Source: Desulfotalea psychrophila LSv54
Lineage (GTDB): Bacteria; Desulfobacterota; Desulfobulbia; Desulfobulbales; Desulfocapsaceae
Assembly (NCBI RefSeq): GCF_000025945.1
Contig: NC_006138.1
Span: forward strand, 960,001 to 992,000
Direction: 5' to 3'
Length of the DNA stretch: 32,000 bases
This document shows positions 1 through 18,186 of the stretch, piece by piece. The notes below the pieces were generated by a model. It saw only the letters and a list, made by a program, of their open reading frames with translations, was not told where the DNA came from and did not search any database. Position 1 is the stretch's first letter; every line of letters begins with the position of its first letter. The position numbers were made by a program, and so were the translations under genes.

Positions 1-319
1 CAGCCTCGCTCTGCAGTTGATCTAACATTCCCTGCGAGTAGTCAATGGCGGTAACTCTTTGAACCTTCTTGGCAATGGGCAGGGCCAGGGTTCCAGAGCC
101 CGCTCCTATGTCGAGTACCGTCATTCCTGTTTCCAGGGGAAGATGGGAGAGGAAGAGAGAGCTGTAGTTGCTCTCTTTAGCGCTTTTAGAAAAAGATGGT
201 GCTTTTTTGTCCCAGTCACGTGCTTTTTTGCTTTTCCATGCCTTTTCCTTGCAGGCGTTGGCATGGAGTAACTTCCAGTCAATATCCTGGTAACAGCTGG
301 GAGAGTTTTTCTTTGTCAT
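1..319 (-). CDS. Class I SAM-dependent methyltransferase (5' part; gene continues past the left edge)
   Basis: Absent from the ORF track because it has no in-window stop. The reverse-strand ATG at 319-317 opens a frame that stays open to position 1: MTKKNSPSCYQDIDWKLLHANACKEKAW...GMTVLDIGAGSGTLALPIAKKVQRVTAIDYSQGMLDQLQSEA. VLDIGAGSG matches SAM-binding motif I. Confidence 0.7.
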   Translation of the reverse strand, partial: MTKKNSPSCYQDIDWKLLHANACKEKAWKSKKARDWDKKAPSFSKSAKESNYSSLFLSHLPLETGMTVLDIGAGSGTLALPIAKKVQRVTAIDYSQGMLDQLQSEA

Positions 320-463
320 AAAAAAAAGATTAGTTGAAAGTATGCGCAGTTAAGAACAGGTCTATTTTGTTTTTACCTGAGAAAAAAACGGTTTAGGTCC
401 CTGCAAAAATATCACAGCTAAAGTTCTTTAGCAAGAATAGGTCTCTTCTACAAGTTAAAATGT

Positions 464-492
464 TTGACACTAGCCCCTATTTGTGTTTAATA
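464..492 (+). promoter_or_regulatory. Candidate sigma70-type promoter upstream of rpmH operon
   Basis: TTGACA (464-469), a 17-nt spacer, then TTAATA (487-492), about 165 nt upstream of the rpmH ATG. Sequence match only. Confidence 0.35.
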
Positions 493-658
493 TTCCCACT
501 TTTCAAAAATGAAGAATTGTTGGGAATAGGCGATTTCCTAAGCAATGACCTGTACTGCTTGCTTTAGGCTTGCAGTTTTGTTTGTTGCGTGGGAAACTGA
601 AGTACGCTTTTTTCTGAGAAATAGCCTGTATTCTGTAAAATAATAAGAGGAAGTCGAA

Positions 659-796
659 ATGAGTAAAAGAACTTTTCAGCCAAGTAACATCAAGCGTAGT
701 CGTACCCATGGTTTTCGTGCGCGTATGAGCACCCGTGCCGGTCGTGCAATTCTTAACGCTCGCAGAGCTAAAGGACGTAAGAGACTTTCTGCATAA
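659..796 (+). CDS. rpmH: 50S ribosomal protein L34
   Basis: A 45-aa ORF too short for the track: [45 protein letters not shown]. This is near-canonical L34. AAGAGGAAG lies upstream of the ATG, and the gene sits directly upstream of rnpA as in most bacteria. Confidence 0.97.
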
Positions 797-797
797 T

Positions 798-1160
798 TTG
801 GAAAGGTATCGGCTTCCAAAGACTGCCTTTGTTCGTAAAGGGTGGGAGTATGATGCGGTATATCGTGGAGGACGTCGCCTGCATGGCGTTGGTTTCACCA
901 TTATTTACCTGCTGAACTCGACGGAGAATAATAGGTTAGGGATAAGCGTTCACCGTAAGCTTCGGGGAGCCGTTAAGCGCAATCGGATTAAGAGAATAAT
1001 TCGGGAGTGTTTTAGGTTACATCGTGATATCTTTCCTCAAAAAGCAGATATAGTTTTTGCTGTTCGTCCTGGGTTTGCTCTCTCTTCACCCGAACAGATT
1101 CGACAGGCAGTTGGGTCTCTTTGTGGTACTCCCTGTGGTGTATGCAATGAAAAAGCCTAA
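798..1160 (+). CDS. rnpA: Ribonuclease P protein component
   Basis: The track ORF 735-1160 starts at a GTG inside rpmH. A TTG at 798, right after the rpmH stop, gives a typical 120-aa RnpA. The basic RNR-type motif [14 protein letters not shown] and the rpmH-rnpA-yidD-yidC synteny support the call. The start is uncertain (735 or 798). Confidence 0.9.
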
Positions 1161-1383
1161 TTTTGCACAGTTACCCCGATTATTTATATTAGGGCTTGTC
1201 AAAGTCTACCAATACTGCATTTCTCCACTTTTTCCCCCAACGTGTCGTTTCACGCCCTGTTGTTCAACATATATGATTCAAGCAGTTGAAAAACATGGTG
1301 TGATACGAGGTGTTGCACTTGGCCTTTGGCGTATACTCCGCTGTCATCCATTTTCTAAGGGCGGCTATGACCCTGTTAAATGA
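1147..1383 (+). CDS. yidD: Membrane protein insertion efficiency factor YidD
   Basis: The internal ATG at 1147 of track ORF 1057-1383 gives 78 aa: MKKPNF...[19 protein letters not shown]...[14 protein letters not shown]. This is the conserved YidD signature. It overlaps the rnpA end and precedes yidC. Confidence 0.9.
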
Positions 1384-1441
1384 GCCGACTTAAACTAACA
1401 CAATCGAATTCTGCGTATTCACTGCGTAAGAGAACCTAACT

Positions 1442-3103
1442 ATGGAAACCAAAAGAGCCCTTCTTGCGATTGTTATCTCGTTTGCCATTCTATTTGGCTA
1501 TCAGTATTTCTTTCCTGGTCTTGATCAGCCAGTCCAAACTACTTCAGAAACTCAGACCACTGTAAATGGTACTTCTGCAAAACAGGCAGGAGCTATACAA
1601 GAAATTACTGCTCCAGTTATTCCCGTTGTCGCCTCCGCAAAATACGATCGTGTTCCACGTGATATCGTTGTTGATACAGATCTCTATACCGCAACAATTA
1701 GTGAAGCCGGCGGTGCTCTGAAAAGCTTTGTCCTGAAAGAGCAAAAAGAGACCAATGCTGAAGATTCTCCAGGTATGCAACTGGTTAACAATAGCAAGAC
1801 GGATGGCTATCCTTTGACGTTCTCCTGGGGTGGTGCCGCTCCTTCTAACCTGCTCTATACCAGCCAGGATAGCGAGGTACGTTTTGGTAGCAACGGTAAG
1901 GCCCGCCTTATTATGACTGCCAAATCATCTACTGGACTTGTTATTGAAAGGGTTTATACCTTTGATAAAAAGACCTATCTCTTTGATCTCGATGTTCGTG
2001 TTGTTAATCAGTCGGGTCAGGCCCTGCAGGGATCTGCCCAGCTCCATCAGGTAAGTGTTCCCTATGAGTCAACCGAAGATAATCCTGCCGCTCGCTTTCT
2101 CTTTATGGGCCCTGTTGTCTATGCAGATGGTGAGCTTACAGAGATAGACCCTAAAGACCTCGAGGATGGTCCTCAGTCTTTTATGGGTGATATCCAGTGG
2201 CTTGGTTATGAGAGCCGCTATTTCATGTCAATGATTGTTCCCTATGGCCTTGATGGTCAAACCTTCACCACTTCCGGTGGTGCTGATCTGACCAAATCCT
2301 TCATTGCCGGCGGTTTGGATACCTTGGCAGCAGGGGCTGAAAAAGAGTATAAATACCACGTTCTCTATGGACCGAAAAAAGTAGAGATGCTTAAGAGTGC
2401 AGGCTATGATCTTGATAAGGCCGTGAACTTTGGCTGGTTTGATATCATTGCCAAACCCACTCTCTGGTTGCTCAACTTCTTTCATAGCTTTACCCATAAC
2501 TACGGTATCGCAATTATCCTTGTAACCATCATGTTCAAGGGCATTTTCTGGCCAATTACCCAAAAGGGTATGAAGTCCATGAAAAACATGCAAAAATTGC
2601 AACCTAAGATGGCTGCTCTTAAGGAGAAGCATAAGGACGATCCAACCAGGATGAACAAAGAGGTGATGAGTCTCTATAAGGCGTATAAGGTGAATCCTTT
2701 GGGCGGTTGTTTACCCATGGTCCTGCAGATTCCTGTCTTCTTTGCCCTCTATAAGGTACTCCTGCTCTCCATCGAGCTTCGCCATGCCCCTTTTATGTTC
2801 TGGATCACCGACCTCTCTGCTCCTGATCGTCTCTGGATTGGTTTTAACCTGCCATACCTTGGCGGTTTGCCGGTGTTGACCCTGTTGATGGGTGCCTCCA
2901 TGTTTCTTCAGCAGAAGTTTAGTCCGACAACTGCCGATCCGACCCAGGCAAAGATTATGATGTTTCTCCCTGTTGTTTTTACCTTCATGTTCTTGAACTT
3001 CGCCTCGGGCCTTGTTCTCTACTGGTTTGTGAATAATCTGTTATCTATCCTGCAACAGGTTCTCATTAATCGGGATGTGAAGCATAAAACCGCTACTGCC
3101 TAA
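1442..3103 (+). CDS. yidC: Membrane protein insertase YidC
   Basis: 553 aa with an N-terminal TM segment and a large periplasmic domain. The conserved C-terminal core reads NPLGGCLPMVLQIPVFFALYKVL...GLVLYWFVNNLLSILQQ. Synteny supports the call. Confidence 0.95.
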   Translation: METKRALLAIVISFAILFGYQYFFPGLDQPVQTTSETQTTVNGTSAKQAGAIQEITAPVIPVVASAKYDRVPRDIVVDTDLYTATISEAGGALKSFVLKEQKETNAEDSPGMQLVNNSKTDGYPLTFSWGGAAPSNLLYTSQDSEVRFGSNGKARLIMTAKSSTGLVIERVYTFDKKTYLFDLDVRVVNQSGQALQGSAQLHQVSVPYESTEDNPAARFLFMGPVVYADGELTEIDPKDLEDGPQSFMGDIQWLGYESRYFMSMIVPYGLDGQTFTTSGGADLTKSFIAGGLDTLAAGAEKEYKYHVLYGPKKVEMLKSAGYDLDKAVNFGWFDIIAKPTLWLLNFFHSFTHNYGIAIILVTIMFKGIFWPITQKGMKSMKNMQKLQPKMAALKEKHKDDPTRMNKEVMSLYKAYKVNPLGGCLPMVLQIPVFFALYKVLLLSIELRHAPFMFWITDLSAPDRLWIGFNLPYLGGLPVLTLLMGASMFLQQKFSPTTADPTQAKIMMFLPVVFTFMFLNFASGLVLYWFVNNLLSILQQVLINRDVKHKTATA

Positions 3104-3118
3104 AGATATTATATGAGA

Positions 3119-3145
3119 GGCGGAGGAAGAGTCCTCTGCCTTTTT
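3119..3145 (+). terminator. Hairpin plus T-run after yidC (possible attenuating intrinsic terminator)
   Basis: GGCGGAGG (3119-3126), loop AAGAGT, CCTCTGCC (3133-3140), giving an 8-bp stem with one G-T pair, followed by TTTTT (3141-3145). It lies between genes that are usually co-transcribed, so its function is uncertain. Confidence 0.4.
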
Positions 3146-3160
3146 GAATGGAGATAGTTC

Positions 3161-4027
3161 ATGGCTTTTGGAAAAAAAGAAGAGCATGATTTTTATGGTA
3201 AAGAAGTCACCGATGCAATCAAAAAGGCCTGTGAGACCTTTGCTGTTCCCCAAGAGGAATTGGATATAGAGATTGTCTTTACCGGTTCCGCTGGTATCTT
3301 TGGTCTTATCCGCAAGAAGGCGCATATTCGTGCTTTTGTTAAGCAGGCAGAAAAAGAAACAGCCCCCGTTGTAGAAGAAGAGGTGCTTGTTAAATCTGCC
3401 CCTCCTGCCCGGAAAGAGGTTGTTGCATCGGCTCTTGCTCCGAATAAAGAAGAGGCCTACGATAGGAATAATCTTCCCACCGAAGTCAGCGATGAGAGTA
3501 TTGCCCTGATAGAGCAGGAAACGCTTAAGGTCATTGAGTTGATGAAGTTTACTGCCGTGGTTAAGGCCACTGCCGAGGCGGGAACCGTTCGTTGTGTGAT
3601 AACTACTGATTTCGAGGATGAGCTGACCGGACAGGATGGTAAAACACTTGATAGTCTTCAGTATATTATTCGTAAGATCGTGGTGAAGAGGGTTGAGGAC
3701 AGGCTGCGAATTAATCTTGATGTTAATGATTTTCGTACCCGTCGCCTTGAAGAGCTGAAACAGCGGGCTGTAGAGCTTGCATCCAAGGTCAAAGAAGATG
3801 GTAAGACCCAGGTGATCACCTCTCTGAATCCCTCTGAACGCCGAGCTATTCATATGATATTGCAGGAAGATAAGGAGATTCGCAGTCGCTCCATTGGCGA
3901 TGGCCTCTTTAAGAAAATTCTTATCTATAAGCCAGGTAATGGCAATCGTGGCGGGCGTAAGCGTTATAGCCCCGGTCGTAAGGATCGTACTGGCAAGAGT
4001 GAGACGCCGGTAAGCGACGAATCCTAA
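3161..4027 (+). CDS. jag: RNA-binding protein Jag/KhpB (Jag_N-KH-R3H)
   Basis: 288 aa. The Jag-N-like N-terminus reads GKEVTDAIKKACETFAVPQEELDIEIV, and the C-terminal R3H-type segment reads LNPSERRAIHMILQEDKEIRSRSIGDG. GGAGAT lies upstream of the ATG, and the position between yidC and mnmE is conserved. Confidence 0.9.
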   Translation: MAFGKKEEHDFYGKEVTDAIKKACETFAVPQEELDIEIVFTGSAGIFGLIRKKAHIRAFVKQAEKETAPVVEEEVLVKSAPPARKEVVASALAPNKEEAYDRNNLPTEVSDESIALIEQETLKVIELMKFTAVVKATAEAGTVRCVITTDFEDELTGQDGKTLDSLQYIIRKIVVKRVEDRLRINLDVNDFRTRRLEELKQRAVELASKVKEDGKTQVITSLNPSERRAIHMILQEDKEIRSRSIGDGLFKKILIYKPGNGNRGGRKRYSPGRKDRTGKSETPVSDES

Positions 4028-4126
4028 TATTTTTTAGTAGGTTGTTTTTTTAATGGGCGCAGGCATATCGTTGATGTGTTCTGCGCTCAGTTGTTTGTAC
4101 TGGAGCACTCTAAGGGGAAATTTGAA

Positions 4127-5581
4127 ATGGCTGTATTTCCCAGGGTGGTTCGAAAAATTATAGAGATCAATAAGACCATGGCTATATCCTACGCTGATAA
4201 TGAAACTATTGCTGCTATTTCAACTCCTATGGGTACCGGAGGCATTGGGGTCATCCGCATAAGCGGCAAAGAGTCTCTGACCATTCTCCAGACAATTTTT
4301 CGTCCCCATAATGACTCCTGCAGTTACCGTAGTCATCAAATGTATTATGGGCAGATCGTGGCAGCCGATGGCCATCAGTTGGATGAGGTTTTGGTCGTCT
4401 ATATGCGGGCTCCCAAGACATATACCTGTGAAGACATTGTCGAGATACACTGTCATGGTAATTTTCTTGTCCTGCAAAATGTTCTGGAGCTGGTTATCGA
4501 GAAGGGGGCAAGTCTGGCTGAGCCCGGTGAGTTTACCAAGAGGGCCTTTTTTAATGGCCGGATTGATCTGACCAAGGCCGAGGCTGTTATTGATGTTCTC
4601 TCAGCCAAGACCCGTAAGGGAGTAGATGTGGCTCAGGAGCAGCTGGCAGGTTCCCTCTATCGTCGTATCGAGCCGATCCGTAACGCCCTGGTCCATATGC
4701 GTGCCCTCTTTGAGGTGGCTATTGATTTCCCTGATCAATCCCATGACATTGTTGACTATGAGCAGATAGATCTGCAGCTGAAGACAGAGGTGATTGCCCC
4801 TGTTAAGGAACTCTTGGCTGGGGTGGATAGGGGCCGGATATATCGTCAGGGGATTTCCATGGTTATCGCCGGTCGACCCAATGTCGGCAAGTCCAGTCTG
4901 CTTAATGCGGTTCTCCAAGAGGAGCGGGCCCTGGTTACCTCCATTGCCGGCACCACCAGAGACTCCATTGAAGAGATGGTGGATATCCTCGGGATGCCTG
5001 TTCGTATTGTCGATACGGCAGGAATACGCCGGCAGGCGGGAGAGGTGGAGGCCCTGGGCATTCAGCGGGCCAAGGATCTGATTAATAGTGCCGACCTCGT
5101 CCTCTTCATGGTCGATGGTTCTCGGCAGCTTGATCAGTCTGATCTTGAACTCTATGAAGACATTGCTCATAAGCCGATGATTGCCGTGATCAATAAGCTG
5201 GATCTTCTGGCCGAGGATGGCACTGCAGCTGCGGCTCTGCTTGACTTTGTCCCTGCATCTGTCCCCCGCCTGGCCATTTCAGCGAGGGAAGGTGAGGGGC
5301 TAGAGGCACTTAAGCAGGCAATTTTTACCGTGGTAACTGGTAGTGATACCCCTTGGGACGAAGAGGGCTGTGCCCCTAACCTGCGTCATAAAAAATCACT
5401 GGAGGCAACTCTCATTGCTGCCGAGCGCATGGTCGACGATCTGGCTCAGGGCATGGGGAGTTCCGACCTCCTCTCCATTGATATGCAGGAGTGTCTTGAC
5501 CAGCTGGGCGACATCATCGGCATCACCACCACCGACGATGTCTTTGACGTCATCTTCTCTGAATTCTGTCTTGGCAAATAA
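4127..5581 (+). CDS. mnmE: tRNA uridine-5-carboxymethylaminomethyl(34) synthesis GTPase MnmE
   Basis: N-terminal TIAAISTPMGTGGIGVIRISG; G-domain motifs GRPNVGKSS, DTAG and NKLD; C-terminal FCLGK. The ATG at 4127 has an AAGGGGA Shine-Dalgarno. The ATG at 4178 (MAISYADNETIAA) is an alternative start, and the track start at 4076 looks too long. Confidence 0.93.
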   Translation: MAVFPRVVRKIIEINKTMAISYADNETIAAISTPMGTGGIGVIRISGKESLTILQTIFRPHNDSCSYRSHQMYYGQIVAADGHQLDEVLVVYMRAPKTYTCEDIVEIHCHGNFLVLQNVLELVIEKGASLAEPGEFTKRAFFNGRIDLTKAEAVIDVLSAKTRKGVDVAQEQLAGSLYRRIEPIRNALVHMRALFEVAIDFPDQSHDIVDYEQIDLQLKTEVIAPVKELLAGVDRGRIYRQGISMVIAGRPNVGKSSLLNAVLQEERALVTSIAGTTRDSIEEMVDILGMPVRIVDTAGIRRQAGEVEALGIQRAKDLINSADLVLFMVDGSRQLDQSDLELYEDIAHKPMIAVINKLDLLAEDGTAAAALLDFVPASVPRLAISAREGEGLEALKQAIFTVVTGSDTPWDEEGCAPNLRHKKSLEATLIAAERMVDDLAQGMGSSDLLSIDMQECLDQLGDIIGITTTDDVFDVIFSEFCLGK

Positions 5582-5913
5582 GGCAGCTATCAGAGAACTA
5601 CAGCTGTCAGCTATCAGCTGTCAGAAAAAAGATGCTAGATACGAGATACGAGAAAAAACTTAACAGCAAAAAGAGCTTAAAAATAAGGTTATTACCGCAC
5701 TCGCCATTTCGCTCCGCTTTACTGCTGTTTTTATCTCTTTCTAGAATCTCGTATCCGTCCTTGCAGTTGCTTTTTCTTATAGCTGTCAGCTCCCAACTGA
5801 TAGCTTTTTCCCTCTGTGTTCTCCCCTTCCTCTGTGGTTAACTGTTTTTTCTGATAGCTGATAGCTGATAGCTGATAGCTGATAGCTGACAGCTGACAGC
5901 TGACAGCTTTCTC
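5582..5913. repeat. Mosaic intergenic repeat spacer 1 (family shared with five other spacers)
   Basis: Module GATGCTAGATACGAGATACGAGAAAAAACTTAACAGCAAAAAGAGCTTAAAAATAAGGTTATTACCGCA (5631-5699) recurs at 10897-10965 and 14136-14211. Also present are CGCCATTTCGCTCCGC..ACTGCTG, TCTAGAATCTCGTATCCG, CAGCTCCCAACT and CCTCTGTGTTCTCC..CCTCTGTGGTTAA (5811-5841), each repeated elsewhere. Confidence 0.85.
5853..5908. repeat. Perfect heptamer tandem array (GATAGCT)x5 (GACAGCT)x3
   Basis: Counted directly: GATAGCT at 5853, 5860, 5867, 5874 and 5881; GACAGCT at 5888, 5895 and 5902. The array ends 5 nt from the elbB stop codon (5914-5916, minus strand). Confidence 0.95.
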
Positions 5914-6570
5914 CTACTCCATCATTTCCACTATTTCCGTCATTAAAGCATCTGCCCCCGCCCCAATCTGGTCAACCCGGGCATCGAGCATATAGCAGGG
6001 GGTGCTTACCACCAGGTTCTTTCTATCTATTACGATCTGACCATGATCCGTTGTTTGGGTCGAGGCTCCCATCTTCTCGGCATTTTGGTGCGAGATAGGA
6101 TCTTGGCCGAGGGTTATCTCTACTCCGGAGATGAGTCTGGCCAGAAGCATGGGGGCAATGCAGAGGGCACCGATGGGCTTTTTTGCCTGGTGCATGTCGA
6201 TAATTGCCTTTTTCACCTCGGGGTTAACCTGACAGTTCACTCCTGCACTAAAATAGTCCGAGAGGTTTTTGGCGGCGCCAAAGCCTCCGGGGATGATGAG
6301 GGCGTCGTAGTCTTCCGCCTTGAACTGGTTAAGATCACTGATCTTGCCCCGGGCAATGCGGGCAGACTCCACCAATACATTTCTGCTCTCGCCCGTCTCC
6401 TCACCATTCAGATGATTGATCACATGGAGCTGATCTATATCGGGGGCAAAACAGTGGTAGTCACAGCCATGGCTGTGAATGGCCCAGAGGCTCATGGTTG
6501 CCTCGTGGATCTCAGAGCCATCAAGGTGACCACATCCAGAGAGAATTACTGCAATTTTGTGTTTTTTCAT
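5914..6570 (-). CDS. elbB: ElbB-type DJ-1/PfpI family glyoxalase (isoprenoid biosynthesis protein ElbB)
   Basis: 218 aa: MKKHKIAVILSGCGHLDGSEIHEA...CFAPD...VINHL.GE...RNVLVESARIARG...DALIIPGGFGAAKNLS...KPIGALCIAP. It is co-linear with my recollection of E. coli ElbB, including the nucleophile-elbow Cys. Confidence 0.85.
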   Translation of the reverse strand: MKKHKIAVILSGCGHLDGSEIHEATMSLWAIHSHGCDYHCFAPDIDQLHVINHLNGEETGESRNVLVESARIARGKISDLNQFKAEDYDALIIPGGFGAAKNLSDYFSAGVNCQVNPEVKKAIIDMHQAKKPIGALCIAPMLLARLISGVEITLGQDPISHQNAEKMGASTQTTDHGQIVIDRKNLVVSTPCYMLDARVDQIGAGADALMTEIVEMME

Positions 6571-6632
6571 TATCGTTCCTCTTGTTGATTAAGTGGGGAA
6601 GTGAGACTTTTTAGCTCTTGCTCGTTATCTTT

Positions 6633-6641
6633 CTCGTATTC
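6633..6641. repeat. IS1 target-site duplication, left copy (CTCGTATTC)
   Basis: Bases 6633-6641 (CTCGTATTC) are identical to 7410-7418 and directly abut the IS1 ends. 9 bp is the canonical IS1 duplication length. Confidence 0.92.
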
Positions 6642-6656
6642 GGTAATGACTCCAAC

Positions 6657-7160
6657 TTATTGATAGTGTTTTATGTTCAGATAATGCCCGATGACTTTGT
6701 CATGCAGCTCCACCGATTTTGAGAACGACAGCGACTTCCGTCCCAGCCGTGCCAGGTGCTGCCTCAGATTCAGGTTATGCCGCTCAATTCGCTGCGTATA
6801 TCGCTTGCTGATTACGTGCAGCTTTCCCTTCAGGCGGGATTCATACAGCGGCCAGCCATCCGTCATCCATATCACCACGTCAAAGGGTGACAGCAGGCTC
6901 ATAAGACGCCCCAGCGTCGCCATAGTGCGTTCACCGAATACGTGCGCAACAACCGTCTTCCGGAGACTGTCATACGCGTAAAACAGCCAGCGCTGGCGCG
7001 ATTTAGCCCCGACATAGCCCCACTGTTCGTCCATTTCCGCGCAGACGATGACGTCACTGCCCGGCTGTATGCGCGAGGTTACCGACTGCGGCCTGAGTTT
7101 TTTAAGTGACGTAAAATCGTGTTGAGGCCAACGCCCATAATGCGGGCTGTTGCCCGGCAT
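6657..7160 (-). CDS. insB: IS1 InsB' frame (expressed as InsAB' transposase after -1 frameshift)
   Basis: Track ORF, 167 aa: ...[42 protein letters not shown]...[10 protein letters not shown]...KHYQ. This is IS1 InsB with the DDE region, and it overlaps the insA 3' end in the -1 frame. Confidence 0.92.
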
Positions 7161-7354
7161 CCAACGCCATTCATGGCCATATCAATGATTTTCTGGTGCG
7201 TACCGGGTTGAGAAGCGGTGTAAGTGAACTGCAGTTGCCATGTTTTACGGCAGTGAGAGCAGAGATAGCGCTGATGTCCGGCGGTGCTTTTGCCGTTACG
7301 CACCACCCCGTCAGTAGCTGAACAGGAGGGACAGCTGATAGAAACAGAAGCCAC
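7079..7354 (-). CDS. insA: IS1 InsA transposition inhibitor / N-terminal part of InsAB'
   Basis: 91 aa: [91 protein letters not shown]. Zinc-finger plus HTH, matching IS1 InsA. Confidence 0.95.
7097..7103 (-). promoter_or_regulatory. IS1 A6C programmed -1 ribosomal frameshift site
   Basis: Plus strand GTTTTTT (7097-7103) reads AAAAAAC on the minus strand. It lies inside TTAAAAAACTC near the 3' end of insA, the established IS1 slippery motif. Confidence 0.85.
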
Positions 7355-7409
7355 TGGAGCACCTCAAAAACACCATCATACACTAAATCAGTAAGTTGGC
7401 AGCATCACC

Positions 7410-7418
7410 CTCGTATTC
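7410..7418. repeat. IS1 target-site duplication, right copy (CTCGTATTC)
   Basis: Identical to 6633-6641. Confidence 0.92.
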
Positions 7419-7500
7419 TTCTATAATAGAGAGAAATGAACCGTCCCACAAATGATATGCTCTCTCTTTTAAATTTTTATGAGTCCCTAAGGAAAATGCC

Positions 7501-8688
7501 ATGAACCTTCTTGATATCCTTCACTCAGAACTCAACCCTGTCCCGGTCAGTCAGGAAATTGTACCTTTAATAGAGGCCGGTGGCCGGGTTGTCTCTGAAG
7601 ATATTCGGGCCCGGATTCCCCTGCCTAGCTATGATCAGTCCAGTCGGGATGGTTTTGCTCTTGCCTCTCTTTCGGAAATGGGCGCTAGCTATCGACTCCT
7701 GGAGTTTGAGGCCTTTGCTGGCAATAGCGAGACGATTTCGCTTCGGGCCGGAGAGGCCTGTGCGGTGATGACCGGTGGCCTGATACCTCTTGGTGCCTCC
7801 CGAGTGGTGCCTAAGGAGCACTGTGCTCCCATGGCTGATACTCTTCAGCTTGATCTGGCGGCCATGGGCCTGCCTCCCTTTATCCAGAGGGTGGGGGAGG
7901 AGGTCGGCCTGCATGAGATAATTATTAAGAGGGGAGAACTTGTCCAGGCCGAAGATCTGGGGCTCTTGGCCAGCACCGGTAATGGGCAGATTCCTGTTTA
8001 CAGGCGACCAAGGGTGGGCTTTTTTGCCACCGGCACCGAATTGCTTGAGTTGGGGCAGGCACCTGTCGCTGGTATGAAGTTTGCCTCAAATCATTATATG
8101 CTTGCCGAACTCTGCAGTCTCTATGGCAGTGAGGGGCACAATATGGGAAGGGTGTCCGACAGGGGGGAGGTACTTACCAAGCTCTTCTCGGAGATAGTCG
8201 AGGGGGATCTTGATCTGGTCATAAGTACCGGCGGTATGGGGCCCGGTCGTTATGATCTGCTTGAGGAGAGCTTTGTTGCAGCCGGTGGCAGACTGGTGGT
8301 GAACTCTCTGCCCATGCTGCCCGGTAGATCAACCTTGGTCGGCTGGCTTGGTACGACCCTCTTCTATGGCCTCCCCGGTACCCCTCGGGCAATTCGTCCC
8401 CTCTTCACCGAGCTCATCTCCCGTTCCCTGCTTGCCATGCAGGGGCTGCTGGAAAATGCTCCCGTGCAGATAGAGGCTCGTCTTATTCGGGACTGTCGCC
8501 TGCGCAGGGCAGATGTTCCCAGTCTACAGGGAGGCAAGCTCTCCTATCAAGATGGGCGGGTCTGGGTTGAGAGGGTGGCTAGGACGGGTTCTCCCGATTG
8601 TTTTATGTTGGTGCCTGCTGGTTCTGATTGTCTTGAGGCTAATAGCTCTGTTCGGGTCCACCTGACAAGGTCACCATTTTCTCGTTAG
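7501..8688 (+). CDS. moeA: Molybdopterin molybdenumtransferase MoeA-like
   Basis: 395 aa. MoeA hallmarks: SSRDGFA (substrate-domain S.xDG[FY]A), VMTGGLIP, tandem domain organisation, ISTGGMGPGRYDLL (MoCF_biosynth TGG motif) and GLPGTP. Confidence 0.82.
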   Translation: MNLLDILHSELNPVPVSQEIVPLIEAGGRVVSEDIRARIPLPSYDQSSRDGFALASLSEMGASYRLLEFEAFAGNSETISLRAGEACAVMTGGLIPLGASRVVPKEHCAPMADTLQLDLAAMGLPPFIQRVGEEVGLHEIIIKRGELVQAEDLGLLASTGNGQIPVYRRPRVGFFATGTELLELGQAPVAGMKFASNHYMLAELCSLYGSEGHNMGRVSDRGEVLTKLFSEIVEGDLDLVISTGGMGPGRYDLLEESFVAAGGRLVVNSLPMLPGRSTLVGWLGTTLFYGLPGTPRAIRPLFTELISRSLLAMQGLLENAPVQIEARLIRDCRLRRADVPSLQGGKLSYQDGRVWVERVARTGSPDCFMLVPAGSDCLEANSSVRVHLTRSPFSR

Positions 8689-9743: not shown

Positions 9744-9794
9744 TCGTTTATTTTTATAAGTTGCCACCCATGTTTGAATATAAAAGGAGTTAGT

Positions 9795-10676
9795 ATGCGA
9801 CAGATCGTTTCTCTACTATTGTTAGTCTCTGGTATCATGGAAGTGTTTACCAGTGTGGTTCTCTATATTGTTCCGGCCGGGCGGGTTGCCTATTGGTCTG
9901 GTTATCGTTTTTTATGGCTCAGCAAGGAGCAGTGGGGGGATATGCATATTACCCTCGGTGTCCTCTTTCTATTGGCCGCGGTTCTTCATTGCTTTGTTAA
10001 TATCCGATCGATTGTCAACTACTTCCGTAATAAGGCCAGAAAGTTCAGCTTCTTCAACACTAAGTTCCTGATCGCCCTGATTCTCTCCCTCTATGTTGCC
10101 ATCGGCACCCTCTATCGTCTTACTCCCATGAATTACGTTTTGACCTGGGGGGAAGAGTTTAGTCAGACGGCTAACCAGAAGTACGGTGAACCACCCTATG
10201 GACATGCCGAAATGTCGTCGCTTACCATGTTCTGCAAGAGGATGAATCTGGACCTTGACAGGGCCAGTGAACTGCTGACAGCGAACGGCATTCAGTTTGC
10301 CGGTCCAGCCACTCCCATCAGTGAAATTGCCGTGGAAAATGGTAGAATCCCTCAGGACATATATCAGATTATTCGCTCAGCTAAGGCCCAACCGAAGGTT
10401 CGCCAGAATGGTCAGGGCCAGATCTCAGCTAAGGTGACCCCCATCTTCCCGGACCTGCCCCCCGCAGGTTTTGGCAATATGACCATTGGCTCCATCTGTC
10501 AGCAGTATGAGGTCCTCCCGAGCCACCTCTTGGCCGAGCTACAGAATCGAGGTCTCCTTATCGATGAGATGGATACAGTAAAAGAGGTTGGGGTAAAGAA
10601 CAACACCAGCCCCATGACCGTCTTTGAACTGATCCACGAGGTGTTGGTCCCACCGGCCCCCGCTACTAAGATTTAG
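9795..10676 (+). CDS. DUF4405-like integral membrane protein
   Basis: The ATG at 9795 is preceded by AAGGAG at 6-nt spacing; the track start at 9774 is unlikely. The N-terminus has 3-4 hydrophobic helices (LLLLVSGIMEVFTSVVLYIVPAGRVAYWSGYRFLWLSKEQWGDMHITLGVLFLLAAVLH) resembling the DUF4405 family, followed by a soluble C-terminal half of unknown function. Confidence 0.6.
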   Translation: MRQIVSLLLLVSGIMEVFTSVVLYIVPAGRVAYWSGYRFLWLSKEQWGDMHITLGVLFLLAAVLHCFVNIRSIVNYFRNKARKFSFFNTKFLIALILSLYVAIGTLYRLTPMNYVLTWGEEFSQTANQKYGEPPYGHAEMSSLTMFCKRMNLDLDRASELLTANGIQFAGPATPISEIAVENGRIPQDIYQIIRSAKAQPKVRQNGQGQISAKVTPIFPDLPPAGFGNMTIGSICQQYEVLPSHLLAELQNRGLLIDEMDTVKEVGVKNNTSPMTVFELIHEVLVPPAPATKI

Positions 10677-11207
10677 TCTGTGTAGTAAAGGATATTAACC
10701 ACAGAGGGCACAGAGACATTTTAGGTGAACTGCTTAAAAACAAAACCTTAATTCAGCTAAAAAGCTCTGTGCCCTTTAATCAATGGTCAGCCGTAGAGAC
10801 GTCGATTTATCGCGTCTCCGATACACCCCAGCGTCAACCTGTTACATCTGCTGTAAAGTAAAAGATATTAACCACTGGCAACCGAGATAGAAGAAAGATG
10901 CTAGATACGAGATACGAGAAAAAATTTAACAACGAGAAAAGCTTAAAAATAAGGCTGTTACCGCAGTTCTTTCTGGTATCCGCCGCTTCGCTGCTAGCAT
11001 CTCATATCTAGTCTCTGCCTTTCTGCCCTTTCTTTTACCCTTTAAATTTTAAAAATGAGTGTTCTCCAGGCAGTGGTTAGTTGCCCTTGCAGTTGTTCTT
11101 TCTTACAGCTGTCAGCTCCCAACTCACAGCTTGCTGCTATTTCTGTTGCAAGCTAATAAGGAACTCCGTTTGAACCATTTTCGTCCAAGAGGTAGAGAAT
11201 TTCCACC
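10677..11207. repeat. Mosaic intergenic repeat spacer 2
   Basis: TTAACCACAGAGGGCACAGAG...TTTTAGGTGAACTGCTTAAAA...CTTAATTCAG (10695-10774) recurs at 25113 and 25314. TTAACCACTGGCAACCGAG plus the GATGCTAGATACGAGATACGAG module (10868-10965) recurs at 14108-14211. GAGTGTTCTCCAGGCAGTGGTTAGTTGCCCTTGCAGTTG...CAGCTGTCAGCTCCCAACT recurs in spacers 1 and 3. Confidence 0.85.
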
Positions 11208-12371
11208 TTATAGGCATATTCGATTTCGTCCCGACTCCTTGGCCTCCTGTAGTTTTTTCCCAGCCCTTTTTAAGGTAGTCTCGAAGAGCTCTTCTTCCGC
11301 TCTATATATGGCGATACCAGCGCTAATGGTAATGTGAAATTTTTCATTGCGTTCATCAAAAACTAAACAGTCTGTTTCTGTTCTTATTATTTCAGTAATT
11401 TGTATTATCTCTTTTTCATTGTTGAAAAAACCAATAAGAAGAAACTCTTCACCACCAAAACGAATACTAAAATCATTTGGCCGGGTATTTTCTATAATAA
11501 TATTGGCTAATCTCTTTAAGACACGATCGCCACAGCTACGCCCATAGTTAGCGTTAATTTTTTTAAAGTGGTCAATATCCAAGTCTATTACTGCCAAAAG
11601 CTTTTCGTTATCCTGGTGCAGTTTTGTTAAGATAGTTGGTAAAATCTCTTTGAGGAATCGTTTTGTATAAAGGTTTGTAAGAGTATCCTTTATTGCAAGT
11701 TCACCAATTTGTCGTAGAAAATAATTTATAACAAAGATTGCAATGACAACAAAAACAATAAAACAGGCACTAAATATTACCGAGGTTTTAAAAACGATCC
11801 AAAAAATATTTTCCTGCATATCATCAAGATAGAGGCCTGTCCCCAGAACCCAGTCCCATGGGGTGAAATAGGTCACATAAGAAATTTTAGGACTCTCCTC
11901 GGGTATATTGGGCTTAGGCCAGTAGTATGAGACCCAACCGCCACCATTTTTAGCTGTGCTAATAAACTCTTTAAAAAAATATTTTCCCTTGAAGTCGGTC
12001 CAGTTGATGAGGTTAAGACCAACTCTATTCGGTGTATATGGTTGCATCAAAAGCACTCCTTCTCCACTGTTTACCCAGAGATAACCATTTGCTCCATATG
12101 TGGCTCCATTTAAGGTATTTAATGCTCTTGCCTTTGCCTGCGAAGAGGTCAGATTTCCATCTGCACTCAGTTGATAAAAATGTTGAACAACTCCCAGACC
12201 AACCTCAGTAATATGTTTAGATTGGTCTTTTTTTTCTTTTTCTAAATTTGTTGAAAGAGAGTAATGAAAAAACAAAAGAAAGGCAGTTAGTCCAAGACCA
12301 ATAAGAATAATAAATGCCAGAAGTTTCTTCTGAATCGGAGACCTGATTGTTAGGGATGCTGAGTTATTCAT
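11208..12371 (-). CDS. Sensor diguanylate cyclase (TM-sCache_2-TM-GGDEF)
   Basis: 387 aa. An N-terminal TM segment is followed by a periplasmic Cache-like segment (YLWVNSGEGVLLMQPY...GGGWVSYYWPKP...PKISYVTYFTPWDWVLGTGLYLDD) and a second TM. The GGDEF domain has DTLTNLYTKR, DIDHFKKINANYG and an intact RFGGEEF active site. The gene is visibly AT-rich (17/60 GC in line 11401-11460). Confidence 0.9.
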   Translation of the reverse strand: MNNSASLTIRSPIQKKLLAFIILIGLGLTAFLLFFHYSLSTNLEKEKKDQSKHITEVGLGVVQHFYQLSADGNLTSSQAKARALNTLNGATYGANGYLWVNSGEGVLLMQPYTPNRVGLNLINWTDFKGKYFFKEFISTAKNGGGWVSYYWPKPNIPEESPKISYVTYFTPWDWVLGTGLYLDDMQENIFWIVFKTSVIFSACFIVFVVIAIFVINYFLRQIGELAIKDTLTNLYTKRFLKEILPTILTKLHQDNEKLLAVIDLDIDHFKKINANYGRSCGDRVLKRLANIIIENTRPNDFSIRFGGEEFLLIGFFNNEKEIIQITEIIRTETDCLVFDERNEKFHITISAGIAIYRAEEELFETTLKRAGKKLQEAKESGRNRICL

Positions 12372-12878
12372 GGCTATACTCTCGCTTAATCTTGAGGTGT
12401 GGAGACGATAGTAGCTCTTTTCTAGGTGTCCTTTATTGTAGGAGAAAAAACAGATGTTGGGAATATTTTTATAATTTTTTTTTAAGCTGTTAAGGAAAAC
12501 AGGCCTAGATTAGGATATATATGTTACTTATTAAGGGGATGGCAGGAATCTGCTGGTGATGCTAAAACGTGGAGAGGATCAGTCGTATAACATCCAGTCA
12601 TTCAGATTTGTCTGGCAAAGACAGTTTGCTTTCATCACAATGGGAATTTTTCTAAACAACAGATTGGCATCACGGCCTGGAAAATGGAGTGGTGCTGGCG
12701 CAACAAAAGACTTAGGATAAATAAGGCGAGATTGCCCCCTGTTCCCACAGTTGCAGTTGTGCCAGTTGATCTTATTTTGGGACATTATATTCGCCCCCTG
12801 AGTATCTGCTAAGCCATAAGCGTCAACGAGGCAATAAAGGTATGGGCAAAGGGCAAACGGGAAAAGAGGTCGTCTACC

Positions 12879-13172
12879 TGTATAAAGCCTGAAAACCCGA
12901 GGAGACGAGCAATATACAGATGTATAAAGCCTTAAACACCGAAGAAAGAGACAATATACAAATGTATAAAGCCTGAAACACCGAAGAAACAGACAATATA
13001 TAAATGTATAAAGCCTGAAACACCGAAGAAACAGACAATATACAAATGTATAAAGCCTGAAAACCTGAGTTGACGGACAATATACGGATCTACACAGGCC
13101 AAAACCTTGAGGAGATGGCCAATATACATCCATACGAAGGCTCAAAACTTGGGTAAATGGCTTATCTGCGAG
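12879..13172. repeat. 42-bp tandem repeat array (5 good + 2 degenerate units)
   Basis: Units start at 12879, 12921, 12963, 13005 and 13047 (TGTATAAAGCCTGAAACACCGAAGAAACAGACAATATACAAA and close variants). Units at 13089 and 13131 are degenerate. Unit junctions form TATACA-AA-TGTATA inverted motifs. Confidence 0.92.
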
Positions 13173-14094: not shown

Positions 14095-14770
14095 GGGCAT
14101 TTAAAAATCAACCACTGGAACCGAGGAAGAAAAAAGATGCTAGATGCTAGATACGAGATATGAGAAAAAACTTAACAGCGAAAAAAGATTAAAAATAAGG
14201 CTGTTACCGCATTTCTTTCTAGTGTCTAGCACTTCGTATCCGCCCTTGCCCTTGCTCTTCCTGGCACCTCCTAACTAATAGCTTCTCCCCACTTGTTCTC
14301 ACCCTCCTCGGAAAGAGACTTTCTGCCCAAAAAATTTTCCCGGAAGCAATGTCCTGTCAATTCTTAGGTAAGACCTTGAAAAGGTGTACAGAGCTACTCC
14401 TCCTCTTGGCAAGGGGAGGCTGGGTGGGGTTTGTCTTTTTTGCTGCATTTTAGCCAAAAAAATTCTCAGTGTTCTTCAAACAGTGGCCAATCGCTTTGCT
14501 TTTTCTAGTATCCGCCATTCCGCTGTGCTCCACTGCTAGCATCTAGCATCTAGCATCTAGTATCTCGCATCTGCTTTTACATCTTCTCTTTTCCTGAATA
14601 AGTATTGTAGTATCTTCTGGGGCTGTGGTAAAATGCCTTGGATATTCGTACGCTTACCAGATTGTGGTATCTGCCTCTTGCTGTGAGCTGGCTGGAAGTA
14701 GGATGTAGGATGGGCAGCAGCGAAGCGAAGCGGCGAAGGGAAGCGAAGCGGAGCGTGCCCATCAATGTTG
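14095..14770. repeat. Mosaic intergenic repeat spacer 4 (inverted heptamer arrays)
   Basis: The array (GATGCTA)x2 GATACGA GATATGA at 14136-14163 is mirrored by its reverse complement (TAGCATC)x3 TAGTATC TCGCATC at 14537-14571. Between them lie the central module AAAAAACTTAACAGCGAAAAAAGATTAAAAATAAGGCTGTTACCGCA, CCGCCATTCCGCTG..CACTGCT, CAGTGTTCTTCAAACAGTGGCCAA and the hairpin CTCCTCCTCTTGGCAAGGGGAGG (14397-14419). GCGAAGC-type repeats occupy 14715-14757. Confidence 0.88.
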
Positions 14771-14955
14771 ATGGGTGAGGAATTGGCTCATGTGAAGATT
14801 TTCAGTTTTTGGATGATGCTGGAGTAATACAATAAGTGAGGCTTTTCGGAGTTATCCAGGCCTTTATAATAACTTGTTGTGTGTGATTACAAATATCATC
14901 ATATATAGATTTGCATTATTGATAATCAGATGATCCATTTTAAGGAAATGCCAAA

Positions 14956-17900: not shown

Positions 17901-18186
17901 CCTAGAAGAATGTTCAATCCTTGATGATGCGTACATTTTTTATCGTAAAGCAAAGAGCATATGGGATCAAAGAGCACCTATACTTTCTCATGAAATTAAC
18001 GTTAAGTTGAAAGATTTGGAACAATCTAAAAGACTTAACGAAGTGCTTAAACTAGGGGAGAAAGATATAATCAGGCGGTGTTCTGTTTGGCTAAAAAGCG
18101 ATCCAGTCCCTAAATCAGGGAAGAGGGTGCACACAACCAACCATTCCACCGGACTCGTTGAAGCTCGCCGCAGAGCTTGTCGTTAG
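14956..18186 (+). CDS. Metallophosphoesterase-NB-ARC (STAND P-loop NTPase)-TPR fusion protein; candidate NLR/Avs-like defence protein
   Basis: 1076 aa; AAGGAA lies 9 nt upstream of the ATG.
- aa 7-300: calcineurin-like phosphoesterase motifs LHLSDLQFG, TGDLVEYG, VPGNHD, AVHHNV and LHGHTHRG.
- aa ~390-705: NB-ARC signatures, namely Walker A GIGGQGKSA (K418, nt 16207-16209), Walker B CLFVFDNVD (D497), LILITCR, a GLPLAL-like TEGHPLWL and a winged-helix YDLHPLVRSF (MHD-like).
- aa ~740-1010: TPR-like helical repeats (NLALALRDSGRYAEAMEYF; GNIGRCLMLQGDYINAIQCLKKS; YAAKWIAQCLEECSILDDAYIFYRKA).
I see no HTH or DNA-binding module. The gene is visibly AT-rich relative to its neighbours. Confidence 0.9.
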   Translation: MIKNNSLTILHLSDLQFGKNHRFFQSNISEENFNFSTLQARLQTDLKIVKSKYDLEPDLIVITGDLVEYGQQSEFDQAKVFFNELASFLNVHISNVLIVPGNHDINRKACEAYFAECEADEKKPTLPYKPKWRHFKNFYNSFYSDISRKFDLETPFGCTEYPELKVAVANLNSTVQESHQEKDHYGLIGENQAQKIAEQLAKRKDEGWFNIAAVHHNVVRGAIEDDDNLRDSEMLQRVIGDHIDLILHGHTHRGKMHWWSPQLPVIGTGSASVEKSARPDEVPNQYQLLKFTGLGFTRYCRAFAPDEAKWIPDSRVNDDGVEEHEINFRNVHAAFPESLEQKTNTQNSNNIDTLPKELDGSSDQIPKIFSPTFKFPFTHYCDLPPVVDVWVGRDKQLTSVLSTKSGVVAITGIGGQGKSALAAKCLEQWKLNHPKSFWDWRDCREEGDRFHTQLLGQIERITDGAVGGEELAGAPTIDLVKYLFEIIGDRDCLFVFDNVDQYVNVNENSFVSGVSTFVNESLRGKHNCLILITCRPRITYPNIRFFEIYLDGLLFEDTIDLFNKRGVDIKKTGMLNTLNEVYTLTEGHPLWLNLLAIQISRDEKSSENILEELRNGEADNRARSMLRPIWKGLNVNQQQVLRCMAEIPRPMDSVQIHNCISGKIKTFNRFKRAFKTIKALSLVVKCESDDGNNKYDLHPLVRSFIKTEYATTKERLPYIDPIVCYLRQLIMGSSAKISTETSFDKLRMWSEKAELEIESGLMADAVESLGYVANRLLAMGYSEELFRVGKRIIDDFIINPSHYNEIKEFDELFQVIIEALIEFGHEADARRFLKNYEDFVEEGTALFIGFCSLMTWVEWHLYNYDEAIYWGERGRYLKKQSSIDTSCDCSHNLALALRDSGRYAEAMEYFLMGNSLESLFYADAESERDGSFWGNIGRCLMLQGDYINAIQCLKKSAESLGNDQGANGIKNQGYAAKWIAQCLEECSILDDAYIFYRKAKSIWDQRAPILSHEINVKLKDLEQSKRLNEVLKLGEKDIIRRCSVWLKSDPVPKSGKRVHTTNHSTGLVEARRRACR

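What the first reader, a model, noticed from the sequence alone, without database searches (positions are those of the whole stretch)
6633..7418. Intact enterobacterial-type IS1 with perfect 9-bp target duplication in a non-enterobacterial context: possible cloning-host artefact or very recent HGT
The 768-bp element (6642-7409) has both IS1 terminal inverted repeats, intact insA and insB' frames and the A6C frameshift site. It is flanked by identical CTCGTATTC copies at 6633-6641 and 7410-7418, so it looks like a fresh, undecayed insertion. It reads as the E. coli IS1 I know from memory.

The surrounding genes (xsc, heptamer-rich repeats, this gene order) do not look enterobacterial. IS1 hopping into inserts during propagation in E. 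coli is a classical artefact of clone-based sequencing.

The element splits the 153-bp divergent elbB/moeA control region, lying 72 nt from the elbB ATG and 92 nt from the moeA ATG. If real, it should perturb both promoters.
Basis: partly seen in the sequence, partly recalled or inferred. Interest (0 to 1): 0.6.

Follow-up and report, generated by a model that had tools for sequence, protein, structure and literature searches.

The report
E. coli IS1 in Desulfotalea genome
A complete copy of the E. coli jumping gene IS1, identical base for base to the copy in laboratory E. coli K-12, sits between two genes of an Arctic sulfate-reducing bacterium; it most likely jumped in while the DNA was being cloned in E. 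coli for sequencing, so it is probably an artefact, not gene transfer in nature.

Summary
Window 6642-7409 (minus strand) is an intact 768-bp IS1. It has 23-bp terminal inverted repeats, insA, insB', the A6C frameshift site and a perfect 9-bp target duplication (CTCGTATTC).

The element matches E. coli K-12 copies IS1A and IS1E at 768/768 bases. It differs at 9 positions from IS1B/C/D and at 73 from IS1F. E. coli similarity stops exactly at the element ends: the other 31 kb have no megablast hit in 5,426 E. coli genomes.

The host is Desulfotalea psychrophila LSv54, a psychrophilic marine sulfate reducer whose genome was published in 2004. Near-identical IS1 copies in the plasmid and phage collections were seen only in Enterobacterales. 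IS1A is also the IS most often found inserted in plasmids grown in E. coli.

I therefore rate a cloning-host transposition artefact at about 0.85 and genuine recent HGT at about 0.1. This is not proven. The rest of the genome, raw reads and native DNA could not be examined, and no independent assembly or sister genome exists in the collections searched.

The identical IS1 in this genome was already reported in 2007 and read as HGT. The element is ordinary. The main value is a caution about a reference genome.

The parts
6642..7409 (-). Complete IS1 element, 768 bp, of the IS1A/IS1E allele of E. coli K-12
   Evidence: 768/768 identical to NC_000913.3 IS1A (19796-20563) and IS1E (3583428-3584195). 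100% full-length hits in MG1655, DH1, C600 and ER1709.
6633..6641 (.). Left copy of the 9-bp target-site duplication, CTCGTATTC
   Evidence: family D2, 100% identical to the right copy
7410..7418 (.). Right copy of the 9-bp target-site duplication, CTCGTATTC
   Evidence: family D2
7387..7409 (-). Left terminal inverted repeat (IRL, insA side), GGTGATGCTGCCAACTTACTGAT
   Evidence: (I1)
6642..6664 (+). Right terminal inverted repeat (IRR), GGTAATGACTCCAACTTATTGAT; 18/23 match to IRL
   Evidence: (I1)
7079..7354 (-). insA, 91 aa (zinc ribbon + HTH; binds the IRs and represses transposition; function from established knowledge of IS1)
   Evidence: ORF. Pfam Zn_ribbon_InsA 76 bits and HTH_Tnp_IS1 107 bits.
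6657..7160 (-). insB' reading frame (167-aa ORF; DDE catalytic part, expressed only as the InsAB' fusion)
   Evidence: ORF. Pfam DDE_Tnp_IS1 260 bits.
7097..7103 (-). A6C (AAAAAAC) programmed -1 ribosomal frameshift site joining insA to insB'
   Evidence: motif at element positions 307-313; a -1 shift yields a 232-aa InsAB'. NCBIfam IS1 family transposase, 243 bits.
5914..6570 (-). Flanking host gene elbB (DJ-1/PfpI-type glyoxalase); its ATG is separated from the IS1 end by 71 nt
   Evidence: NF008747 ElbB, 298 bits vs cut-off 180
7501..8688 (+). Flanking host gene, moeA-like (MoeA_N + MoCF_biosynth, no MoeA_C domain); its ATG is separated from the IS1 end by 91 nt
   Evidence: (100% identity to D. 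psychrophila MoeA)
7422..7427 (+). Consensus TATAAT hexamer 3 nt beyond the right TSD copy. It is a possible -10 box of moeA whose upstream (-35) DNA is displaced by the insertion. Inferred only.
   Evidence: Sequence; hexamer scan of the reconstructed empty site (best 9/12, weak -35).

Best explanation
The element is an E. coli K-12-type IS1 (allele IS1A/IS1E). Most likely it transposed from the chromosome of the E. coli cloning host into a cloned fragment of Desulfotalea psychrophila LSv54 DNA while the shotgun or cosmid library was being propagated. It was then carried into the finished consensus.

The mechanism is standard IS1 transposition, from established knowledge of IS1:
1. A -1 frameshift at A6C makes the InsAB' DDE transposase.
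2. The transposase binds the 23-bp terminal repeats.
3. It inserts the element at a staggered 9-bp cut in an A+T-rich target, here the 153-bp elbB/moeA intergenic region.
4. Repair of the staggered cut creates the CTCGTATTC duplication.

Shown here: the anatomy, the exact allele, the exact boundaries, the host identity, and the enterobacterial range of near-identical copies. Inferred: that the jump took place in E. coli and not in D. psychrophila. It is also possible that the insertion was favoured because it uncoupled a promoter-like A+T-rich region in the clone; this is speculative and untested.
For: 1. Zero divergence from the K-12 allele. The element is 768/768 identical to K-12 IS1A and IS1E, against 9 mismatches to IS1B/C/D and 73 to IS1F. 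Lab strains DH1, C600, ER1709 and MG1655 carry 100% copies.
2. The matching allele is the one that contaminates clones. IS1A was the commonest IS in E. coli-propagated plasmids, found in 363 of 535 IS-bearing plasmids among 47,877 Addgene plasmids (PMC8867978). [quoted passage not shown] That IS jumps into cloned DNA are a known artefact is stated in PMC2758499 (abstract).
3. E. coli similarity ends exactly at the inverted repeats. Window 1-6641 and 7410-32000 have no megablast match in 5,426 E. coli genomes. No donor plasmid or phage DNA came with the element.
4. The perfect 9-bp TSD and intact frames show a fresh transposition event.
5. The host is ecologically and phylogenetically remote from the element's range. 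The host is D. psychrophila LSv54. Among the 5,000 best plasmid hits the ten genera named by the tool are all Enterobacterales (12 further first words were not shown). All 20 phage hits are phages of Escherichia, Shigella, Klebsiella or Salmonella.
6. There is one copy in the 32-kb window. The element has 53.3% G+C against 47.3% for the rest of the window.
7. The genome dates from 2004 (Rabus et al., cited). From my own knowledge, bacterial genomes were then sequenced from libraries propagated in E. coli; the paper itself could not be read.
Against: - No direct test was possible. No raw reads, clone coverage, native-DNA PCR or second assembly were available.
- In a finished genome with several-fold clone coverage, an insertion in one clone is normally outvoted. 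Survival into the consensus needs low coverage at this spot or selection for the disrupted clone.
- The exact IS1A allele is also widespread in wild E. coli and on conjugative plasmids. Identity to K-12 therefore does not by itself prove a laboratory source.
- Zero differences over 768 bp only bounds the age to roughly thousands of years (my estimate).
- The IS1 copy number in the rest of the chromosome and in the two plasmids was not determined.
- Two published surveys accepted the element as genuine HGT (PMC2018620; PMC2688936), though neither discusses cloning artefacts.
Confidence: 0.85

Rival explanations
1. The insertion is genuine and very recent horizontal transfer. An enterobacterial IS1A reached D. 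psychrophila, or its immediate ancestor, on a transient plasmid or phage. It transposed into the elbB/moeA intergenic region, and the donor replicon was lost. The insertion would then be real in strain LSv54 and would separate the divergent elbB and moeA promoters.
For: - The element is fully intact with a perfect TSD, so it is a true transposition product.
- The exact allele is common in wild E. coli, and near-identical copies sit on conjugative plasmids (3,436 of the 5,000 best plasmid hits are predicted conjugative).
- The published finished genome retains it, and Wagner et al. 2007 interpret it as HGT.
- Faecal contamination of marine habitats is invoked by Hooper et al. 2009 for host-marine transposase links.
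Against: - Near-identical IS1 was seen only in Enterobacterales plasmids and phages.
- The recipient is a strictly anaerobic psychrophile from Arctic sediment (organism; physiology from the title of Rabus et al. 2004 and my own knowledge).
- No co-transferred DNA is present.
- There is only one copy in the window and no divergence at all.
- The allele is the one that dominates laboratory clone contamination.
- The same signature is reported for another genome, Haemophilus ducreyi. I believe that genome is also of the clone-based sequencing era (own knowledge, not checked here), which would fit a shared laboratory cause better than independent natural transfers.
Confidence: 0.11
2. The element is an assembly chimera or contamination: reads from contaminating E. 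coli host DNA were mis-joined into the D. psychrophila consensus without any transposition event.
For: The E. coli-identical DNA sits inside an otherwise unrelated genome.
Against: - A mis-join would not produce boundaries exactly at both inverted repeats together with a perfect 9-bp duplication of the D. psychrophila target.
- No E. coli chromosomal sequence flanks the IS.
- Removing the element and one repeat copy restores a continuous 153-bp intergenic region.
Confidence: 0.02

Closest known systems
IS1A / IS1E of Escherichia coli K-12 (IS1 family; insA, insB', InsAB' by -1 frameshift)
   Same: Identical at all 768 positions. It has the same 23-bp inverted repeats, the same A6C site, the same 91-aa InsA and 232-aa InsAB', and the 9-bp target duplication typical of IS1.
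   Different: Nothing in the element itself. Only its location differs: the chromosome record of a Desulfobulbaceae-type sulfate reducer, not an enterobacterium.
IS1B, IS1C, IS1D and IS1F of E. coli K-12
   Same: Same family, same length and same organisation.
   Different: 9 mismatches (IS1B/C/D) and 73 mismatches (IS1F) to the window element. The window copy is specifically the IS1A/E allele.
E. coli IS insertions acquired by cloned DNA during propagation (IS1A, IS10R, IS5 in plasmid repositories; IS10 in pUC19)
   Same: The same allele (IS1A) is the most frequent contaminant (363 of 535 IS-bearing Addgene plasmids; PMC8867978). As in such insertions, the element here is intact, has a fresh target duplication and sits in foreign insert DNA. 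The phenomenon is described as a known source of cloning artefacts in PMC2758499.
   Different: Here the insertion sits in a finished chromosome consensus, not in a single plasmid. The clone origin is inferred, not observed.
Published report of 'identical IS1 elements' shared by D. psychrophila, E. coli and Haemophilus ducreyi (Wagner, Lewis & Bichsel 2007, IScan; PMC2018620)
   Same: It is the same observation, very probably the same element. The odd link of D. psychrophila to enterobacteria also appears in Hooper et al. 2009.
   Different: Those papers read it as natural horizontal transfer and do not mention cloning artefacts. The present analysis adds the allele assignment, the exact boundaries and the enterobacterial range, and favours an artefact.

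Membership tests
IS1 family, isoform IS1A | Length of about 768 bp, bounded by imperfect terminal inverted repeats of about 23 bp beginning GGT | tested here: met
   768 bp; inverted repeats 6642-6664 and 7387-7409, 18/23
IS1 family, isoform IS1A | Two consecutive frames, insA and insB', joined by a -1 programmed frameshift at A6C to give the InsAB' transposase | tested here: met
   insA 91 aa, insB' ORF 167 aa, AAAAAAC at 7103..7097, fusion of 232 aa
IS1 family, isoform IS1A | Protein domains: InsA zinc ribbon and HTH, IS1 DDE transposase | tested here: met
   Pfam PF03811, PF12759 and PF03400, all above their cut-offs. NCBIfam NF033558, 243 bits vs 100.
IS1 family, isoform IS1A | 8-9 bp direct target-site duplication | tested here: met
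   9-bp CTCGTATTC on both sides, 100% identical
IS1 family, isoform IS1A | Nucleotide identity to the reference IS1A copy | tested here: met
   0 mismatches in 768 to NC_000913.3 IS1A and IS1E
IS1 family, isoform IS1A | Transposition activity | not testable with these tools
   Inferred from sequence identity to active K-12 copies
Cloning-host IS insertion artefact | The IS is identical to an allele carried by the E. coli strains used for cloning | tested here: met
   100% identity to copies in K-12 MG1655, DH1, C600 and ER1709. The strain actually used for the library is unknown.
Cloning-host IS insertion artefact | E. coli-derived DNA is limited to the IS itself, with a target duplication made of insert DNA | tested here: met
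   No E. coli match outside 6642-7409. The TSD is D. psychrophila intergenic sequence.
Cloning-host IS insertion artefact | The genome was sequenced from libraries propagated in E. coli | not testable with these tools
   The Rabus et al. 2004 paper is not held. The 2004 date implies Sanger clone libraries; that inference rests on my own knowledge.
Cloning-host IS insertion artefact | The element is absent from native genomic DNA (empty site by PCR or clone-free reads) | not testable with these tools
   No independent assembly encodes the flanking proteins. The empty-site sequence was not found in genome or metagenome contigs. The nearest MoeA relative is only 48% identical.
Cloning-host IS insertion artefact | No other, diverged copies of the IS in the same genome | tested here: inconclusive
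   One copy in the 32-kb window. The rest of the chromosome and the two plasmids could not be fetched.

The most novel reading that the evidence does not exclude
The insertion is real in D. psychrophila LSv54. An unmutated enterobacterial IS1A was naturally delivered into, and transposed within, a psychrophilic, strictly anaerobic Arctic sulfate reducer of a different phylum. This would show that IS1 works far outside Enterobacterales and that gut-bacterial mobile DNA reaches polar sediment anaerobes on a very recent timescale.
Probability: 0.1. Interest if true: 0.5.

Novelty: already known. Interest (0 to 1): 0.15.

Why it matters
Biologically the element is the textbook E. coli IS1, and its presence in this genome record was already noted in 2007.

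The practical point is data hygiene. If it is an artefact, as the evidence suggests, a reference genome carries 777 bp (768-bp IS plus one 9-bp repeat) that do not belong to the organism.

Consequences of the artefact, if confirmed:
- It splits the annotated elbB/moeA control region.
- It adds spurious transposase genes.
- It has already been counted as cross-phylum horizontal transfer in at least one IS survey (PMC2018620). It probably also contributes to a puzzling marine-enterobacterial link in a transposase network study (PMC2688936).

A single PCR would settle it.

Tried and rejected
1. Exact search for the reconstructed empty site in GTDB genome contigs and JGI metagenome contigs: no match.
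2. Search for loci encoding MoeA relatives in genome contigs: none confirmed.
3. Exact-protein look-ups of MoeA and ElbB in public assemblies: not on record, so there is no independent assembly of the strain.
4. Synteny in the nearest relatives (P0002 and P0011): elbB is not next to moeA there, so they give no usable empty site. The closest MoeA is only 48% identical.
5. Fetching the two LSv54 plasmids (NC_006139 and CR522871): not in the collections.
6. Reading the genome paper for library and host-strain details: not held.
7. Supplementary tables of the two survey papers: none held, or no mention of Desulfotalea.
8. Literature search for an explicit statement that this IS1 is an artefact: none found.
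9. Promoter scans: only a weak -35/-10 candidate in the empty site. The idea that the insertion was selected in E. coli for silencing a promoter stays speculative.
10. Chimeric misassembly: rejected because of the exact IR boundaries and the TSD.

Full report
**1. What is in the sequence.**

Reading window 6400-7700 and listing ORFs shows a 768-bp block at 6642-7409 with the organisation of IS1 on the minus strand.

- Terminal inverted repeats lie at 7409..7387 (GGTGATGCTGCCAACTTACTGAT) and 6642..6664 (GGTAATGACTCCAACTTATTGAT). They match at 18 of 23 positions.
- insA is 7354..7079 and encodes 91 aa. The overlapping insB' frame is 7160..6657 and encodes a 167-aa ORF.
- The AAAAAAC slippery motif is at 7103..7097. 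A -1 shift there joins the two frames into a 232-aa InsAB'.
- Pfam finds the InsA zinc ribbon, the InsA HTH and the IS1 DDE transposase domain, all far above their cut-offs.
- NCBIfam's IS1 family transposase model scores 243 bits against a cut-off of 100 on the fusion protein.
- The element is flanked by CTCGTATTC at 6633-6641 and 7410-7418. For a specified 9-mer at a specified place this has a chance probability of about 4e-6.
- A degenerate search for IS1 ends finds only these two in the 32-kb window, against 0.03 expected by chance.

This includes the geometry: 71 and 91 intervening nucleotides to the elbB and moeA start codons, and a reconstructed 153-bp intergenic region with 63% A+T.

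**2. Which IS1 it is.**

Megablast against 5,426 complete E. coli genomes gives 100% full-length matches in many strains. These include K-12 MG1655 and the laboratory derivatives DH1, C600 and ER1709.

I fetched the six annotated IS1 copies of NC_000913.3 and compared them base by base.

| K-12 copy | Mismatches to the window element (of 768) |
|---|---|
| IS1A | 0 |
| IS1E | 0 |
| IS1B | 9 |
| IS1C | 9 |
| IS1D | 9 |
| IS1F | 73 |

The window element is therefore specifically the IS1A/E allele.

**3. Where it sits.**

The flanking genes are an elbB equivalog (NCBIfam 298 bits against a cut-off of 180) and a moeA-like gene (MoeA_N + MoCF_biosynth). Upstream lie yidC, jag and mnmE.

The MoeA protein is 100% identical to 'molybdopterin molybdotransferase MoeA [Desulfotalea psychrophila]' on a 3,523,383-bp contig. 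That is the chromosome size given for strain LSv54 in Table 1 of PMC2702500. The next-best MoeA in 5.8 billion clusters is only 48% identical, so no sister genome exists in these collections.

The 6.6 kb to the left and the 24.6 kb to the right of the element have no megablast match in any E. coli genome. The E. coli-identical DNA begins and ends exactly at the inverted repeats. The element has 53.3% G+C, against 47.3% for the rest of the window.

**4. Natural range of this element.**

- Among the 5,000 best plasmid records, 4,970 of them at 99% identity or more, the ten genera named by the tool are Escherichia, Klebsiella, Salmonella, Enterobacter, Citrobacter, Shigella, Leclercia, Providencia, Serratia and Proteus. 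All are Enterobacterales. Twelve further first words were not shown.
- All 20 phage records with a match are phages of Escherichia, Shigella, Klebsiella or Salmonella.

**5. Explanation.**

The anatomy shows a genuine and recent IS1 transposition into D. psychrophila DNA. A mis-assembly of contaminating E. coli reads would not give exact IR boundaries plus a 9-bp duplication of the host target, so that rival is rejected.

The open question is where the jump took place. I favour the E. coli cloning host, at about 0.85, for these reasons.

- **(a) The allele.** It is identical to the K-12 IS1A/E allele. IS1A is the IS most often found in plasmids propagated in E. coli: 363 of 535 IS-bearing plasmids among 47,877 Addgene plasmids (PMC8867978). 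[quoted passage not shown] 2013. [quoted passage not shown] PMC2758499 states that IS elements of cloning strains are known to cause cloning artefacts.
- **(b) No accompanying donor DNA.** Nothing else from E. coli came with the element. This is trivial if the donor was the host chromosome. In nature it would require a transient replicon.
- **(c) The recipient.** It is an Arctic, psychrophilic sulfate reducer, outside the enterobacterial range seen.
- **(d) The date.** The genome was published in 2004. From my own knowledge this implies Sanger sequencing of E. coli-borne libraries. The paper itself is not held.
- **(e) A parallel case.** The same 'identical IS1' is reported for Haemophilus ducreyi. 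Hooper et al. were puzzled by links joining D. psychrophila, Beggiatoa sp. and B. cereus ATCC 10987 to enterobacteria. Such a pattern would be expected from a shared laboratory host. This last point is my inference.

**6. What weakens the conclusion.**

- Nothing here observes native DNA.
- A finished consensus usually rests on several clones, so the insertion would have had to lie in a thinly covered stretch or be favoured in E. coli.
- I looked for a reason for such selection. The element sits 12 nt upstream of a consensus TATAAT (7422-7427, sequence), in A+T-rich DNA. However, the reconstructed site has only a weak -35, and the generic scan is at background level. This stays speculation.
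- The IS1A allele is also common in wild E. coli and on conjugative plasmids.
- Zero substitutions in 768 bp only bounds the age to the order of thousands of years (my estimate).
- Copy number in the rest of the genome could not be determined. The source genome was not retrievable from genome contigs, its plasmids are not in the plasmid collection, and no other assembly encodes the flanking proteins.
- Genuine recent HGT therefore keeps about 0.1.

**7. Comparison with what is known, and novelty.**

The element meets every testable defining feature of IS1 and is the IS1A isoform by identity. Its presence in D. psychrophila has been published before. Wagner et al. 2007 state that D. psychrophila, E. 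coli and H. ducreyi 'all share identical IS1 elements' and take this as evidence of horizontal transfer. Neither that paper nor Hooper et al. 2009 mentions cloning artefacts.

The finding is thus already known as an observation. It is an ordinary element and probably not part of the organism's genome. Its value is as a flag on a reference sequence and on HGT inferences drawn from it.

**8. Verdict.**

- Observation: confirmed.
The artefact is favoured but not proven.
- Interest: low (0.15).
- Decisive test: a PCR across window 6501-7560 on DSM 12343 DNA, giving 283 bp if the site is empty and 1,060 bp if it is occupied. Clone-free resequencing would serve equally.

Noticed in passing
window 5851-5908 and 14536-14572: There are two heptamer tandem arrays. 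CTGATAG x8.3 (98% matches) lies in the gap between the convergent mnmE and elbB genes. CTAGCAT x5.3 lies upstream of the 1076-aa ORF. Function unknown.
   Followed up: no
window 12879-13105: A 42-bp tandem repeat (about 4.4 copies, 90% matches; TGTATAAAGCCTGAAACACCGAAGAAACAGACAATATACAAA) overlaps ORF 12579-13145(-), which has no Pfam hit.
   Followed up: no
window ~14600-18050 (and ~10750-12700): There are two low-G+C blocks (35-38% against about 47-50% around them). The first carries a 1076-aa protein (14956-18186, +) with a metallophosphatase domain, a weak NACHT NTPase hit and TPR repeats. This is a STAND-like architecture that might be a defence or signalling gene on an acquired island. 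The second block carries an sCache-GGDEF diguanylate cyclase (11208-12371, -).
   Followed up: partly
window 7501-8688: The moeA-like protein and its nearest ~37 relatives (Desulfotalea, Desulfoprunum and Electrothrix-type MAGs) have MoeA_N and MoCF_biosynth but lack the C-terminal MoeA_C domain (PF03454) that more distant homologues carry. It scores well below the NCBIfam MoeA equivalog cut-offs (200 bits vs 440). It may be a distinct MoeA/Glp-like subfamily.
   Followed up: partly
window 9774-10676; locus L008 6310-7221: A DUF4405 gene lies about 1.1 kb downstream of moeA both in the window and in a Desulfotalea sp. MAG. The elbB-moeA adjacency is not conserved in relatives.
   Followed up: partly
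literature (PMC2018620, PMC2688936): Haemophilus ducreyi is reported to share the identical IS1. B. cereus ATCC 10987 and Beggiatoa sp. are linked to enterobacteria and D. psychrophila through shared transposases. These may be further cloning-host IS artefacts in published genomes and have been used as evidence of cross-phylum HGT.
   Followed up: no
Its specificity was not tested.
   Followed up: no
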